The notes under the pieces: generated by a model
The model's input: only the letters and a program-made list of their open reading frames with translations
What the model was told of the DNA's origin: nothing
The model's database searches: none
Shown: positions 8,581 to 48,456 of the stretch, piece after piece
Position numbering within the stretch: position 1 is the stretch's first letter
Layout of the letters: every line of letters starts with the position of its first letter
Assembly (NCBI GenBank): GCA_964016885.1
Contig: OZ024757.1
Coordinates: 41,168,001 to 41,232,000, forward strand
Source: Eledone cirrhosa
Lineage: Eukaryota
Direction of reading: 5' to 3'
Length of the DNA: 64,000 nt
Translations under genes and position numbers: made by a program

Positions 8581-8824
8581 ATATTTACTGATACTTTATT
8601 GGCAGTTCTGAATGAGCAAAACATCGTCATCTGATCTGATTTGTCTCACAATCGGACAATTACCCTGACCCATGCTAGCATAGAAAAATTGACAATAAAC
8701 TTTGATGAAGATACACACACATGTATATACACATAAATATATTCATAAATGTATAAACATACTTATAGAAACAATCACACATTCACTCTCATACACACCC
8801 ATACACACATTTATATATATATTA

Positions 8825-10993
8825 GAGTCGTATAATATAGAGGAACAGTGGGAATTCCTGAAAGCAAACCTGCTGACGGCGGCAGACGAAGTCTGTGGCT
8901 GGAGCAGGCCTGTAGGTAGGAGGAGAGTAACTTGGTGGTGGAATAGTAAGGTTGAGGAGTCAATTAAGGCCAAAAAGCAGGCTTGGGAAATATGGCGGGA
9001 TGGGGGAAGTAGAGAAGACTATCAAGTGGCCCGGAGGGAAGCTAGGAGACAAGTGTACTTCGCAAGAAGGGAAGCAGAGGAAAGAAAGTTCAAGCATGTT
9101 CTACAACGTGAGGACCAAAAACGTGAGGTGTTCAGGATTGCTAGGCAATGTGTCAAGGAAAACCGTGATATTGTCGGGGAGAAGTGTGTACTTAACGATG
9201 ATGGCATACTTGCCATCACCGACGCTGATAAGAAGGTAACTTGGAAGTGTCACTACGAAAGGCTTCTAAATGAGGAGAATAAATGGGAGAAAGACAGTCT
9301 CCCCCACATCGACCCAATAGAGGGACCAGCAGTGTTAGTCGAGGGTAGTACAATAAGTAAGGCAATCAAAGATATGAAGACGGGTAAGGCGGCTGGGCCT
9401 TCGGAAATAGTTGCTGAGATGCTGAAGGCATCTGGTTCGGTGGGACACACCATGGTCACCCGGATAGTTAACCAAGTCGTACAGAATGGGGTTGTTCCGA
9501 AGGACTGGCGTAGCAGCATCATCGTTAACTGCTATAAGGGAAAAGGAGATGCCCTAGATAGGAGTAACTATAGAGGCATTAAATTAATCGACCAGGTCAT
9601 GAAGGTCACGGAAAAAGTAATAGCGCAACTAATCAGAGAGAGAATTGATCTAGATGAAATGCAGTTCGGGTTTGTGTCAGGCAAAAGTACCACAGACGCT
9701 CTTTTCATTGTACGACAACTACAGGAGAAGTACCTAGCTAAAAGTAAACCCCTATACTTAGCTTTTGTCGACTTGGAGAAAGCCTTCGACAGAGTCCCCC
9801 GTCCCATTATCTGGTGGGCTCTTAGAAAACTAGGTGTTGACGAATGGCTTGTGAGAGCTATACAAGCCATGTATAAAGAAACAGTCAGTAAGGTTAGAAT
9901 TAACAACGAATATAGTGAAGAGTTTAGCGTAAAAGTTGGTGTCCATCAGGGCTCTGTTCTTAGCCCCCTACTATTTATTATTTCCCTTCAGGCTATAACA
10001 GAGGAGTTCAAGACCGGCTGCCCATGGGAACTCCAATACGCAGATGATCTAACGCTCATAGCTGAATCAATGACCGAACTAGAGAAGAAATTCCAAACAT
10101 GGAAGCACGGCCTAGAATCAAAAGGCCTTAAAATTAACCTGGCTAAGACTAAAGTTCTAGTTTGTAGGAAAGAAAATAAGGCGGCGGTCCCTTCCGGGAA
10201 ATGGCCATGCTCAGTGTGTAGGAAAGGCGTAGGTAGAAACTCCATTTTATGTCCCCAACGCAAAGTATGGGTGCATAAAAGATGTAGTGGGATCACAGGT
10301 AAGCTAACTAAGAACATAGATTTTACATGTGGCCGGTGCTCTGGTGCAATAAGTAGCAGCATGTGCCCACTAAATACTAGCTCTTTCAATTGCGCAGAGG
10401 GTTCTATAGAAATAGTGGACAGCTTCCGTTACCTGGGTGACAAAATCAGCAGTGGGGGAGGGTGCTCTGAAAGTACAGTAGCTAGAGTCAGAACTGGATG
10501 GAAAAAGTTCAGAGAGCTTATACCACTATTAGCCGCTAGAGGGTTCTCCCTAAAAATGAAAGGCAGGTTATACGATGCCTGCATACGTACAGCAATGCTG
10601 CATGGCAGTGAGACCTGGGCATTGTGTGCAGAGGATAGACGCAGACTAGAGAGGAACGAAGCTTGCATGCTCCGCTGGATGTGCAATAGTAATATACGTG
10701 AACGGCTAAGCATAAACGAACTAAGGAAAAAATTAGAAATAAGAGGGATCAGATGTTGTTTACTCGAGAGAAGGCTACGTTGGTACGGTCACGTGATGCG
10801 CATGAAAGACGACAGCTGTATAACAAAGTGCAGGGCAATAAAGATAGACGGTAGCCACGGAGTAGGCAGACCCAGAAAAACCTGGGACGACATGATAAAT
10901 TCCGACCTCACACGCTTACACCTCTCCAAGACAATGTCACTGGACCGAGACCTTTGGCGGTACTCAGTAATAGAGAAGACTCGCCTTACCTAA
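8825..10993 (+). CDS. Reverse transcriptase ORF of RTE LINE (N-terminally truncated) with inserted PHD-like zinc finger
   Basis: The ORF track gives 8702..10993, but the first ~41 codons are flanking microsatellite. Motifs seen: TWWWN, KAAGPSEI, YKGKGD..NYRGIKL, QFGFVSGKST, AFVDLEKAFDRV, GVHQGSVLSPLLF, YADD (10037-10048), FRYLG, MLHGSETW, RLRWYGHVMR, GRPRKTW. Confidence 0.92.
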   Translation, partial: ESYNIEEQWEFLKANLLTAADEVCGWSRPVGRRRVTWWWNSKVEESIKAKKQAWEIWRDGGSREDYQVARREARRQVYFARREAEERKFKHVLQREDQKREVFRIARQCVKENRDIVGEKCVLNDDGILAITDADKKVTWKCHYERLLNEENKWEKDSLPHIDPIEGPAVLVEGSTISKAIKDMKTGKAAGPSEIVAEMLKASGSVGHTMVTRIVNQVVQNGVVPKDWRSSIIVNCYKGKGDALDRSNYRGIKLIDQVMKVTEKVIAQLIRERIDLDEMQFGFVSGKSTTDALFIVRQLQEKYLAKSKPLYLAFVDLEKAFDRVPRPIIWWALRKLGVDEWLVRAIQAMYKETVSKVRINNEYSEEFSVKVGVHQGSVLSPLLFIISLQAITEEFKTGCPWELQYADDLTLIAESMTELEKKFQTWKHGLESKGLKINLAKTKVLVCRKENKAAVPSGKWPCSVCRKGVGRNSILCPQRKVWVHKRCSGITGKLTKNIDFTCGRCSGAISSSMCPLNTSSFNCAEGSIEIVDSFRYLGDKISSGGGCSESTVARVRTGWKKFRELIPLLAARGFSLKMKGRLYDACIRTAMLHGSETWALCAEDRRRLERNEACMLRWMCNSNIRERLSINELRKKLEIRGIRCCLLERRLRWYGHVMRMKDDSCITKCRAIKIDGSHGVGRPRKTWDDMINSDLTRLHLSKTMSLDRDLWRYSVIEKTRLT

Positions 10994-24098: not shown

Positions 24099-24689
24099 TC
24101 TTTAACTTCATCACTAACTTTGATGATATTTTTTTATATCTATATATAATTATATATATACAACATATATACATGTATATGTGTGTGTATATGTATATAT
24201 ATAACTTTGATAGGTTTCGGCCAGTGTTGGCCCAGGTCATGTCTAACTTAATAGCATATATATATATATATATTTGTACTGCCTCTCTGTTTTTTGTTCT
24301 CTGTTTATTTATTAAACTATATATATATATATATATATATATGTTATGTTGTTGATATATATAACAGTCAAAAGTGTTATACTGCAGAAATTTATTTAAT
24401 ACATTCATTTTTTGTTAATCAAAGATAATTCTTGGATTCCCCCCCCCCCCCCCCCCCCATCCAACTCCACCCCTATCATTCTATTGTGAATTATGGCTTG
24501 TGTTAGGTAAATTTCAATAATTTGAATTTTATTTTAAAAAAATTTTAAATAAATAATGACAGCTAAACAGAAATCATTAAGAATTAAACTGTTTCTTTGG
24601 ATTTTAACAGTCTATGTTTTTTTTTATGTCTAATTAACATTTAACGTCCTGTACCACATGAAACCACATTAGTAAGACATTCTGGAAAA

Positions 24690-25257
24690 GTACAAAACAA
24701 CACTATGACTACATCACATTAAATATTAAAGTCTTTACTGTAATACTGTAAATTTTCCCAACAATCTGGCAATTAGTAAAGATACTATAAACATTTAGTA
24801 CAAAACAACACTATGACTACATCACATTAAATATTAAAGTCTTTACTGTAATACTGTAAATTTTCCCAACAATCTGGCAATTAGTAAAGATACTATAAAC
24901 ATTTAGTACAAAACAACACTATGACTACATCACATTAAATATTAAAGTCTTTACTGTAATACTGTAAATTTTCCCAACAATCTGGCAATTAGTAAAGATA
25001 CTATAAACATTTAGTACAAAACAACACTATGACTACATCACATTAAATATTAAAGTCTTTACTGTAATACTGTAAATTTTCCCAACAATCTGGCAATTAG
25101 TAAAGATACTATAAACATTTAGTACAAAACAACACTATGACTACATCACATTAAATATTAAAGTCTTTACTGTAATACTGTAAATTTTCCCAACAATCTG
25201 TCAATTAGTAAAGATACTATAAACATTTAGTACAAAACAACACTATGACTACATCAA
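24690..25257. repeat. 108-bp tandem minisatellite, ~5.25 almost identical copies
   Basis: GTACAAAACAACACTATGACTACATCAC... starts at 24690, 24798, 24906, 25014, 25122 and 25230. Confidence 0.95.
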
Positions 25258-31413: not shown

Positions 31414-31689
31414 CTATATGCAGTTATTTGAGTACAGATGTATAATGTCTGCCAAAAAAAAAGAAGCATTTTTATAAAATAACCTTTAATGAAAGTTTAT
31501 TTTTTCAAAAAAACTAACAAGAAATGTTGATCGCAATTGTTTGAACTAGACGTATCTTATGGTCTACTAAGTTGTTGTTGTTTTTTTTCATGTGGGGAGG
31601 GTGAATATATCTGTACAAACAAACAAATAAATATATATATCTGTGTATATATGTGTATGTATGTATGCATGTGTGTGTGTGTTTGTATC

Positions 31690-34143
<2,454 letters not shown>

Positions 34144-34144
34144 G

Positions 34145-34483
34145 TACGATATTAAACAAATGGAAACTATATTTATAAAACCATATTTATTTCATTATAC
34201 TTATTTCGGGGATACCATATTAAAAATATGGCATGCCTTCTTCAGATAAAATACAATATATAAACAGTTTTATAAATAATTTTGACGTACCATAAATATT
34301 GATCAACTTTTATGTAAGAAGTTGATCAATATTTATGGTACGTCAGAATTATTTATAAAACTGTTTATATATTGTATTTTATCTGAAGAAGGCATGCCAT
34401 ATTTTTAATATGGTATCCCCGAAATATGTATAATGAAATAAATATGGTTTTATAAATATAGTTTCCATTTGTTTAATATCGTA
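34145..34483. repeat. Near-perfect fold-back palindrome (165-bp arms, 9-nt loop) carrying a hammerhead-like core in each arm
   Basis: 34145-34309 is the reverse complement of 34319-34483 with very few mismatches. CTGAAGA (34383-34389), a 12-13 bp hairpin and GAAA (34421-34424) lie in the right arm. Confidence 0.9.
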
Positions 34484-36060
34484 TATCTACTCCAAACCTT
34501 GTTGAGTGCTTTATATCAGTTATAAAATATTTACTTGTTGTAACCCAACAATTTTAAATAAAACTTTTGCATGTATATATGTATATATGTATGTATATAT
34601 GTATATATGTTTGGATATATGTATATATGTATGTATATATGTATGTATATATGTATATATGTATGTATATATGTATGTATATATGTATGTATATATGTAT
34701 GTATGTATATATGTATATATGTATGTATATATGTATATATGTATATATGTATGTATATATGTATATATATATGTATATATGTATATATATATATATGTGT
34801 ATATATATATATATATGTATTGTCTTTGTGTGTGTAAATATTCATTTATATATATACATATATATACACACATATATGTATGTATATTCACAGACACACA
34901 TATATATATATATTTACATGTATATATACATACATGTATATATACATACATATATACATACATATATGTATATATATATATATTTTTTTTTTTTCATACA
35001 TATATATATATCACTCACAAACTGAACGTAGGTATGATGTTTGTGCATTAAATATTCATACTTATCCCCTACCCCACCCCCTCCTGTTTCTCTCAAGTCA
35101 TAGAAATCTCACAAACATCAGTTTTTTGCTTCTTTCTTAGTTTTCCTTGTCTATTACTCCTACTTTTCTAAAGTTTGCCCATTTTTTTTTTAGTTTTTAA
35201 TTATTTTTACTTTAATATTTTTATTACTTTAATATTTTTATTATTTTTACTTTAATATTTTACAAGGCCCCCACCTCTCCCCCTCAGCCCCCTCCTTATT
35301 TTCATAAAAACTTTCTTCATTCTGGCCACATTCCATCTTCGGTTGTTTTTTTTTTCTGGTCTGTCTTTGTCTATTTTTGTTAATTTTTGCAATTTTTTTT
35401 CATTTTAAATATTTTTCCAGTATTTCATTTTTTTGTTTTTGTTTTTTTTTTAGTAGATTTATTTTGATAACTCTTTACAGGGGCTTTGTCTTATTTTATT
35501 TGTTTATATTTATATTTATTTATTTTATTTATTTAGGGGTCAGCGGGGTTTACTTTGTCCTTTTGTTTATAACTAATATTATTCATATTATCATCATCAT
35601 CACTATCATAATTGTTGTTCATCATCACCATCATCATAACTATTGTTGATCATCATTATCATCATTATCATCATCATCATCATAAATTTACTGTCAACAT
35701 AACCAACAGACCCCCCCCTCCCCGCCACACACCTCTACATTCTGCTTGCTCCATCACATCCACCTACCCCATCACAATTATATTTTATGCATCGCACAGA
35801 CACTCATATTTGAATATTCAAATATATATATATATATACACACAGACATACCTATATATATATATATACACACGCACACACATATATATACATATAATAT
35901 ATACACATATATTATATACACACACATATATATATACACATATAATATATACACATATATTATATACACACACACACATATATATATATATACACATATA
36001 ATATATACACATATATTATATACACACACACATATATATATATACATATAATATATAGAC

Positions 36061-46960: not shown

Positions 46961-47021
<61 letters not shown>

Positions 47022-47025
<4 letters not shown>

Positions 47026-47433
47026 TTAAAAAAATAATGAATAAAACAATGAAACAGTTCCTTATATTAAACAAAAAAAGTTCATTATTTAACAATCGTT
47101 TCTAGGATATATATGTGTTAGAATTGGCATGCATATTCAACAGATCTATGTACAAAATTATACAAAATTATACAAGATTATACAAACTATCAAATTTAAT
47201 ATACATACCAACACATACATATGCCGTCTTCAGAAATAATTTCTGAAGACGGCATATGTATGTGTTGGTATGTATATTAAATTTGATAGTTTGTATAATT
47301 TTGTACATAGATCTGTTGAATATGCATGCCAATTCTAACACATATATGTCCTAGAAACGATCGTTAAATAATGAACTTTTTTTGTTTAATATAAGGAACT
47401 GTTTCATTGTTTTATTCATTATTTTTTTTATAT
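47022..47433. repeat. Near-perfect fold-back palindrome (~200-bp arms) centred at 47238, with hammerhead core
   Basis: The centre reads TCTTCAGAAAT-A-ATTTCTGAAGA. The arms match out to ~47022/47433, and the left arm has an extra ~20-bp ATTATACAA duplication. Confidence 0.9.
47239..47369 (+). ncRNA. Putative type I hammerhead ribozyme (Penelope-like minimal type, long stem II)
   Basis: Stem I ATTT/AAAT; CTGAAGA 47243-47249; stem II ATATGTATGTGTTGG pairing with CTAACACATATATGT; GAAA 47354-47357; palindromic ACGATCGT; predicted GUU cleavage triplet. Confidence 0.55.
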
Positions 47434-47569
47434 TTTATCTTGACTCTGTATTCCGTTTATCTTTCACCGAAAGTGATTTTTGAATGCATCTCTTCTTTCC
47501 ATGATATCCGGATTACATTGAGTTCTTCATACGGATTGGACACTACCGTAAACTCTTGGTAGATTTATC

Positions 47570-47615
<46 letters not shown>

Positions 47616-47700: not shown

Positions 47701-48456
47701 GAATATACACATATACACACATATATATCTATCTGACTATCTATCTCTATATCTATCTATCTATCTATCTATCTGTCTATGTATCTATTTTTCTTCAAGA
47801 AATTATCTGTGTCCAAGGCTGGAGAAAGACAGTGTCTGTCATATTTAAAATCCCCAAACCCCAGACCACAAATTGTACAAATGGTTAATTAGAATACATA
47901 GAGGTATGGTAAGTGTAGTATATCTCTACTGTATATAACAAATAATTCAACTAAACTCAAAGAATGGCCTCCTGCTGGTCAAGAATATAGAAAAACTGTT
48001 CTGTAGAGAGGTTCCATCATTGGCCAATAATTTTAGAGATTAAAATTTAATGTGTTCTGGGAATTCTGCAGAAATATTGGCTTATTCTGATACATGATAA
48101 ATTCTCTGTGATAAAATGGTAAAATGATAAATTCTATTGATGACATGGCGTAGATTTATATGATATATATATATATATATATATATATCATATAAATCTA
48201 CGCTATATATATATATATATATATATACACAGTTGTATATATGTATATATATGTATTTATTATTACTATATGTGTATATATACATATACAAATATATATA
48301 TATTTATTATATATATATACATACATCCACACATATATATATATATATATTTATATATTTATGTATATACATACATACATAGATACACACACATATATAT
48401 ATTATATGTATATATATATTATATAGATATGTATATTTATTTATTTTACTATTTGT

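What the first reader, a model, noticed from the sequence alone, without database searches (positions are those of the whole stretch)
34145..34570. Second, unrelated 339-bp near-perfect palindrome also containing a hammerhead-like core
Seen: 165-bp arms with a 9-nt loop and very few mismatches, again embedded in (TA)n. The core is CTGAAGA-A-GGCATGCCATATT-ttt-AATATGGTATCCCC-GAAA-TATGTA-TAA. The arm sequence is unrelated to the 47-kb element, yet the architecture (microsatellite, fold-back, core, short unique tail) is the same. The cleavage-site/stem I register is imperfect, so activity is uncertain. Inference: independent families are produced by the same fold-back insertion mechanism, and the high arm identity implies a recent event or arm-to-arm conversion.
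Basis: partly seen in the sequence, partly recalled or inferred. Interest (0 to 1): 0.72.

Follow-up and report, generated by a model that had tools for sequence, protein, structure and literature searches.

The report
Twin-primed Penelope start-site palindrome
This mirror-image DNA is a short, young insertion of a Penelope-like jumping gene that is common in this genome, and it was likely built when both ends of one DNA break each copied the front of the same RNA, which would explain how these elements make their long-puzzling inverted ends.

Summary
The palindrome is real (165-nt arms, 2 mismatches, 9-nt loop). It is not a separate family. It is a stub of a 4.1-kb Hydra-clade Penelope-like retrotransposon: inverted pLTR + pLTR + tail, in (TA)n, an architecture already in print. 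The parent of the 47-kb element is a relative (34-47% amino-acid identity). Fold-back is the weaker model. In 46 of 46 scorable insertions one end carries the tail and the other does not (20 of 20 in the 47-kb family). Some arms do not overlap at all. Arms share subfamily alleles in 40 of 40 pairs, even kilobases apart. Inner ends stop at an initiator-like site. This fits twin priming at two fixed sites on one sense RNA, with run-off at its 5' end (inferred). I did not find this model in eight literature searches, but this scan has already noted it on other DNA, in this genome and in others (unreviewed AI notes).

The parts
31632..34146 (.). (TA)n-rich target array, left flank
   Evidence: 109 of 115 outer ends in the C1 sample are followed by TA repeat
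34142..34324 (-). Tail-less arm: inverted copy of the parent pLTR, from about 10 nt downstream of the initiator-like A (parent -182) to priming site 1 (parent about -5 to 0). The apparent 9-nt loop belongs to this arm
   Evidence: (start at -182 against natural parent L081)
34319..34324 (.). 6-nt microhomology at the head-to-head joint, supplied by a small hairpin (CAACTT/AAGTTG) of the parent 5' UTR
   Evidence: a joint of the same length occurs in 10 of 38 listed centres, in several subfamilies (counted by eye), and in both orientations relative to the tail
34319..34486 (+). Tail-bearing arm, pLTR part (parent -167 to 0); 34482-34486 is the short TA word at priming site 1
34375..34440 (+). 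Minimal type I hammerhead: stem I 34375-34382/34433-34440; core 34383-34389 and 34421-34424; stem II 34390-34420; 2-bp stem III with a self-complementary loop 34424-34431; predicted cut between 34432 and 34433
34188..34253 (-). Mirror hammerhead on the minus strand, with one private change in the stem III loop (34201)
34487..34570 (+). 'Tail': the next ~85 nt of the parent 5' UTR, ending at priming site 2, about 50 nt before the parent ATG
34571..34983 (.). (TA)n-rich target array, right flank
47020..47572 (+). Comparison element: same kind of stub from a second, related Penelope-like family (about 4.9-kb parent, ~140-nt tail)

Best explanation
This is a short dead-end insertion of a 4.1-kb Hydra-clade Penelope-like retrotransposon, likely made when both ends of one cut in (TA)n primed reverse transcription on the same sense RNA at two fixed sites and the two copies, running toward the RNA's 5' end, were joined head to head. 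[quoted passage not shown] Inferred: (1) transcription starts at that A inside the pLTR; (2) the nuclease cuts both strands of a TA repeat; (3) each 3' end anneals to a 5-6-nt TA word in the RNA, one at the arm end and one at the tail end, about 89 nt apart; (4) both cDNAs copy one RNA, which is possible if the RT leaves its template intact (no RNase H; recalled); (5) priming at the first (5') pair of sites gives only stubs of up to about 280 nt per arm, like this one, and priming at the 3' pair gives long copies; (6) the cDNA ends are joined through microhomology, here 6 nt. The hammerhead is a passenger of the pLTR. It was read through uncut in this copy, and a transcript of the whole palindrome would bury it in a 165-bp duplex.
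For: Parent: arm + tail + ORF + 3' UTR + arm, unit about 4.09 kb; 374 homologues at E<=1e-10 among 7998 scored candidates. End rule: the first 100 of 1439 exact hammerhead-motif hits form 64 loci; 52 have a head-to-head joint; 48 could be classed, 26 tail-left and 22 tail-right, none tail-tail or arm-arm; 46 of 46 after dropping one duplicate (L123) and one locus whose outer end lay outside the fetch (L141). Independent sample by end motifs: 53 of 58 divergent pairs are mixed; the 4 apparent arm-arm pairs are tailed arms of a variant subfamily, so 57 of 58. Genome-wide, 2775 tail ends against 2702 arm ends, sister subfamilies included. 47-kb family: 20 of 20 fetched pairs. Non-overlapping or barely overlapping arms: L119, L162, L126 (29-nt tail stub), L117, L134, L175, L230, L234, L237; in family 2 L203, L206, L217. 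One template: at two segregating sites 0 discordant arm pairs in 40 (27.9 expected if arms were independent), in 18 short and 22 long pairs alike. Run-off edge: among 101 arms, 7 end within 1 nt of the initiator-like A and none of 52 at risk end 2-9 nt upstream; family 2 piles up at -206 to -210, again on an initiator-like A. Two template classes: both arms short 23, mixed 6, both long 19, against 14/24/10 expected, p 2e-7 (classes read by hand; test). In vitro, a Poseidon PLE cuts and extends both strands, starts RT at two internal sites that bound the tail, and uses uncut RNA (PMC11167929).
Against: No RNA evidence was obtained, so the start site is inferred from where copies stop. One true tail-tail insertion exists (L228, sister subfamily). 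Four joints could not be classed (L116, L129, L153, L155); L155 looks like a short fold-back. Twelve of 64 loci show no joint; only 2 of these have a tail stub (29 nt and about 6 nt) and 6 run straight into TA repeat. Six of 48 insertions pair a short arm with a long one. One of 30 full copies (L003) is discordant between arms at a segregating site, and mirrored private changes exist (L022, L028, L030), which fold-back or conversion also explain. The pile-up of tailed arms near site 1 (4 of 23 short insertions) is not significant on its own. The main sample is biased to loci that keep the hammerhead core. None of the 20 long loci screened holds an uninterrupted ORF. PAc was reported to prime at sites without homology to the target, whereas here both sites carry TA words.
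Confidence: 0.72

Rival explanations
1. Fold-back or self-priming (the first reader's view; for PLE palindromes also PMC3846280, which proposes self-priming on an antisense template): one cDNA folds on the small 5' UTR hairpin and copies itself.
For: Explains identical arms and mirrored private changes. This copy's joint lies on a natural 6-bp hairpin. L155 has a 110-nt inverted end with no canonical second terminus.
Against: A folded-back strand can only copy what the first strand holds. Here the tail-less arm is the longer one at the centre while the other arm has the tail. Tail-only second arms share no sequence with the first arm (L119, L162, L126; L203, L206, L217). Second arms can be kilobases longer than the first and still share its alleles. 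In L120 and L150 both arms reach -192.
Confidence: 0.13
2. Post-insertion remodelling: longer inverted insertions were trimmed by palindrome-driven deletion and homogenised by arm-to-arm conversion.
For: Long palindromes are unstable (general knowledge). Deletion could yield asymmetric or non-overlapping arms, and recombination between arms can flip the loop (both orientations occur).
Against: Private changes in short pairs are 9 one-arm against 1 mirrored; in long pairs 24 against 10, all 10 from one mis-paired sister-subfamily locus (L126). Deletion does not predict a sharp edge at one nucleotide in two families, nor an intact partner arm that ends exactly there (L117, L158).
Confidence: 0.07
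3. A self-propagating non-autonomous element (MITE-like, SINE-like or retrozyme) copied as a 424-bp palindromic unit.
For: At least 40 near-identical full-length copies with fixed outer ends; the same joint recurs in several copies.
Against: The centre differs from copy to copy, and the recurring joint appears in several subfamilies and both orientations. Inverted spans form a continuum from 78 bp to 4.6 kb between hammerhead motifs. The tail lies outside the inverted repeat, unlike a MITE. No tandem monomers, unlike retrozymes. This copy lacks the initiator-like site. I saw no palindrome-of-palindromes in the 64 loci.
Confidence: 0.05
4. Assembly or library artefact (read fold-back).
For: No long read over this locus was available.
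Against: The arms differ at two positions, the ends are fixed at biological sites, and alleles and joints vary by locus. Raw Illumina reads of a related organism hold arm-end/(TA)n junctions (6348 and 7531 reads) and a head-to-head joint (67 reads from one start).
Confidence: 0.02

Closest known systems
Hydra clade of C-terminal EN+ Penelope-like elements (PMC8557442; section 11 and passages read, supplements not seen)
   Same: Parent ORF has RWR for RWK, DKT, a CxCX5C linker, a C-terminal GIY-YIG without the CCHH cysteine pair, CxxC and CxH near the C-terminus, a hammerhead, and (TA)n targets.
   Different: Unit is 4.1 kb (paper: generally under 3 kb) because of a ~1.7-kb 3' UTR; tail is about 85-90 nt (paper's general figure 30-40 bp). 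No tree with named Hydra references was built.
EN+ PLE insertions with inverted 5'-truncated pLTR and one-sided tail (PMC8557442 Fig. 2 legend; Adineta Pen2a, PMC3846280; passages read)
   Same: Inverted pLTR + pLTR + tail, palindrome at the joint, a TCACT initiator-like word in the pLTR.
   Different: Those papers call the tail optional or often one-sided and propose antisense self-priming. Here one-sidedness is nearly a strict rule and the data favour two sense-primed cDNAs. No target-site duplication can be read in (TA)n.
PAc (Poseidon, Anolis) in vitro system (PMC11167929; parts 1-2 of 4 read)
   Same: Both strands cut and extended; two internal RT start sites that define the tail; predicted dimer; uncut RNA is the main template.
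   Different: In the parts I read it does not link the two sites to opposite ends of one insertion or to inverted arms. Its start sites lie inside the ORF and lack target homology; here they lie in the 5' UTR and carry TA words.
LINE-1 twin priming
   Same: Two target strands prime on one RNA and give a head-to-head inversion joined by microhomology.
   Different: In L1 the second site is variable and the two cDNAs cover different segments. Here both sites are fixed, close together and internal, and the cDNAs mostly overlap, which gives a palindrome.
Animal non-LTR retrozymes (bioRxiv 10.64898/2026.07.22.740005, part 1 of 5 read; PMC6155905 passages)
   Same: Type I hammerhead related to PLE pLTRs.
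   Different: Retrozymes are tandem direct repeats. This is a single inverted pair that is colinear with an ORF-bearing parent.

Membership tests
EN+ Penelope-like element | Single ORF with RT and GIY-YIG endonuclease in the parent | tested here: met
   672-aa frame in L083 with RT motifs and a GIY-YIG-like core read from the sequence; homologues carry PF26215. The local Pfam copy gave no significant hit. No uninterrupted copy among 20 long loci.
EN+ Penelope-like element | pLTRs in tandem and inverted arrangement | tested here: met
   L081, L082, L083, L084 and the C1 sample
EN+ Penelope-like element | [quoted passage not shown] | tested here: met
   46 of 46; 57 of 58; tail longer than the published 30-40 bp
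Hydra clade | RWK-like, DKT and CxCX5C motifs | tested here: met
   RWR, DKT and CxCX5C in L083 and other copies against the definition
Hydra clade | No CCHH cysteine pair inside GIY-YIG; CxxC and CxH near the conserved E and N | tested here: met
   One cysteine between the GIY and YIG words; CxxC before E and CxH after N
Hydra clade | Insertion into (TA)n | tested here: met
   109 of 115 outer ends; 3 of the 6 others are tandem read-through
Hydra clade | Length generally under 3 kb | tested here: not met
   Unit 4.09 kb; the paper gives this as a tendency, not a definition
Hydra clade | Placement in an RT tree with named Hydra families | not tested
Neptune clade | CX2-5CxxC linker and CCHH motif | tested here: not met
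   my first, recalled assignment to Neptune was dropped
Minimal type I hammerhead | Core boxes, stems I-III and cleavage triplet in register | tested here: met
   8-bp stem I, 2-bp stem III, self-complementary stem III loop. The monomer hammerhead fold is 3-4 kcal/mol above the minimum-energy fold of the 66-mer; z-scores -1.2 to -2.6.
Minimal type I hammerhead | Covariation of stems, conserved core | tested here: met
   16 subfamily representatives (of 18 clusters; L073 and L095 left out for insertions): 95.8% of cells paired, 8 of 9 stem II pairs with compensatory change, 31 against 11.9 shuffled, slid controls 36-52%. Stems I and III were part of the selecting pattern, so only stem II is a free test, and related sequences inflate the shuffle test. 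In the core, position 7 varies freely and only one other change is seen.
Minimal type I hammerhead | G10.1-C11.1 closing pair | tested here: inconclusive
   A-U in 10 of 16 representatives, G-C in 2. This copy has A.C, or G-C with an extra bulged A; its allele is in 32 of 80 arms.
Minimal type I hammerhead | Self-cleavage | not testable with these tools
   Needs a cleavage assay
Non-LTR retrozyme | Tandem direct repeats, each with a hammerhead | tested here: not met
   Single inverted pair
MITE / foldback DNA transposon | Terminal inverted repeats at both ends and a fixed interior | tested here: not met
   Tail lies outside the repeat, the centre varies, and the parent is an RT element

The most novel reading that the evidence does not exclude
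Penelope-like elements integrate by obligatory asymmetric twin priming: a dimeric enzyme copies one sense mRNA twice, from two fixed internal sites, one per broken target end, and in Hydra-clade elements it uses short TA words in the RNA to anneal to the (TA)n target. The thousands of short palindromes are run-off products that map the RNA start to the nucleotide, and a shorter class may record cuts by a hammerhead that works with a non-standard A-U closing pair.
Probability: 0.5. Interest if true: 0.72.

Novelty: new member of a known kind. Interest (0 to 1): 0.5.

Why it matters
The object itself is ordinary: one of several hundred stubs of a known class of retrotransposon. Its family matters more. 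How PLEs make inverted pLTRs and a one-sided tail is stated as open in PMC8557442, and the published explanation I found is antisense self-priming. The strict one-tail/one-arm rule, the shared alleles and the sharp stop at an initiator give exact predictions for an in vitro test: which RNA strand, which two start sites, which 5' end. It also warns annotators that such palindromes are not MITEs or separate ribozyme families.

Tried and rejected
Rfam: no hit at gathering score. The inverted-repeat finder was swamped by (TA)n. The local Pfam copy did not recognise the parent ORF and lacks PF26215. Neptune assignment (recalled) rejected on motifs. The first structure count used a mis-indexed structure and is void; one search is the corrected one. 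Sequencing runs: no RNA holder listed; the runs laid come from related organisms and do not span this locus. A downstream-promoter-like word lies one base off the usual spacing (consensus recalled); not used. Run-off at the predicted ribozyme cut: 87 mini-palindromes meet near that site and L220, L221, L224 and L236 have arms ending at -55 or -56 by BLAST against a predicted -53, but the AT-rich, self-complementary stem III blurs the joints; this was not quantified and stays open. The 1478 'candidates' are not palindrome copies: the exact short-centre pattern has 38 places. Literature searches for the twin-priming model in PLEs; none listed a paper that proposes it. The library lacks most subscription papers, and supplements of PMC8557442 and of the bioRxiv preprint were not seen and may list this family or its hammerhead.

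Full report
1. Observation. The palindrome is there: arms 34145-34309 and 34319-34483, a 9-nt loop, two mismatched pairs, between TA-rich arrays. A unique stretch follows the right arm to 34570. The hammerhead boxes are at 34383-34389 and 34421-34424. Stem I is a full 8 bp in the standard register after a triplet at 34430-34432; stem III has 2 bp and a self-complementary loop, as in minimal type I motifs for which dimer cleavage is described (PMC6155905 passages). Rfam has no hit.

2. It is a repeat. The 40 best-scored of 1478 candidates in the 3.0-Gb genome match almost the whole element at 94-100%. In 30 aligned copies both outer ends are fixed and flanked by TA repeat, while the centre varies. 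A pattern that reaches beyond the centre found 237 places, some in tandem about 4.1 kb apart. These hold the parent: pLTR (the arm), tail, an ATG about 50 nt later, an ORF with RT and C-terminal GIY-YIG motifs, a long 3' UTR and a second pLTR. The ORF has 374 homologues among 7998 scored candidates; the best named one is from Argonauta at 40%. None of 20 long loci has an uninterrupted ORF. Its motifs match the Hydra clade as defined in PMC8557442 section 11, not Neptune as I first recalled; the lead to Hydra came from earlier scan notes and was then checked. Exact motif counts: 1439 hammerhead cores, 186 RT motifs, 38 short centres. Scaling the C1 sample (23 short insertions per 100 motif hits) gives roughly 300 short insertions of this subfamily that keep a core (estimate).

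3. This copy. Against natural parent L081 (arm end = 0) the left arm covers -182 to 0 inverted and the right arm -167 to +84; six bases at 34319-34324 belong to both. So the tail-less arm is the longer one at the centre, and the 'loop' is simply its extra sequence.

4. End rule. I took the first 100 core hits, all on contig C1, as 64 loci. Fifty-two show a head-to-head joint; 48 could be classed and all have one tailed and one tail-less end (26 and 22). Dropping a duplicate (L123) and a locus whose outer end was not fetched (L141) leaves 46 of 46. Four joints were unclassed (L116, L129, L153, L155). Twelve loci have no joint; two of them carry a tail stub and six run into TA repeat. A second sample chosen by end motifs gave 53 of 58 mixed pairs; four apparent arm-arm pairs proved to be tailed and one tail-tail pair is real (L228). 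Genome-wide the two end types number 2775 and 2702. Both sites coincide with 5-6-nt TA words in the parent. BLAST reports them as +3 and +86.

5. One template, copied twice. Over 121 nt, arms of one insertion differ by 1.1 on average and arms of different insertions by 2.4. At two segregating sites none of 40 pairs is discordant (27.9 expected), in 18 adjacent and 22 distant pairs alike; private changes are mostly one-armed. Arms were therefore alike at birth and are not being homogenised. Several insertions have arms that do not overlap or barely do (L119, L162, L126, L117, L134, L175; L230, L234, L237 from a set I picked for short span), which a fold-back cannot make.

6. Run-off. Of 101 core-bearing arms, 7 end within 1 nt of the A of a TCACT word at -192, and none of 52 longer arms ends 2-9 nt upstream. 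PMC3846280 notes the same initiator-like word in a rotifer pLTR, and Drosophila Penelope has an internal promoter (PMC2377424 passages). Insertions tend to have both arms short (23) or both long (19) rather than mixed (6), p 2e-7 (classes by hand). This fits priming at the 5' or at the 3' pair of sites of one mRNA.

7. The 47-kb element.

8. Hammerhead. Across 16 subfamily representatives the stem II sequence turns over but keeps pairing (8 of 9 pairs compensatory), while the core varies almost only at position 7 (caveats in the membership table). The closing pair is mostly A-U, which is unusual (recalled). Activity is untested. Whether some RNAs are cut in vivo stays open: 87 mini-palindromes meet near the predicted cut, but this was not quantified. 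A transcript of the whole element folds into one long hairpin.

9. Known and new. The architecture is in print. The in vitro ingredients are in print. The joined model was not found in eight searches. This scan's unreviewed notes reach the same model on other DNA; I reached it before looking, and their agreement is not independent evidence. Verdict: a new member of a known kind, with family-level data that make an open mechanism testable. Interest 0.5.

Noticed in passing
window 8699-10993 (+): 764-aa open frame with RVT_1 (E 3.6e-32); probably a LINE, not related to this finding.
   Followed up: partly
window 48148-48203: Perfect 56-nt palindrome around a TA run. The right half is a 16-nt stub with TA repeat on both sides, and it resembles the tail end of the 47-kb family; perhaps a minimal tail-stub insertion.
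   Followed up: no
window 47020-47572: The hammerhead of this family has a ~120-nt stem II, a perfectly self-complementary stem III, and its stem I begins at the inferred RNA start.
   Followed up: partly
L121 and L123 (G000:C1 35.17 Mb and 36.09 Mb): Near-identical insertions with the same joint in opposite orientation, 0.9 Mb apart: likely a segmental duplication.
   Followed up: partly
L228: The one tail-tail insertion seen, in a sister subfamily, with a full tandem unit on one side.
   Followed up: partly
L167, L178: Joints with three short tandem copies of the sequence at the cDNA end, like polymerase slippage or repeated re-priming.
   Followed up: no
L126, L095, L097, L201, L053: Several palindromes of different subfamilies within a few hundred bases of each other in the same TA tract: repeated use of one target.
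   Followed up: no
L215, L134, L033, L026, L104: Other compact hammerheads with a 21-nt core spacing and a different self-complementary stem III; probably further PLE families.
   Followed up: no
window 24689-25256: 108-bp tandem repeat, 5.3 copies, 99% matches.
   Followed up: no
window 34420: The C allele here is in 32 of 80 arms; T is the majority in this genome and in reads of a related organism. The two alleles change the base of stem II and may differ in cleavage rate.
   Followed up: partly
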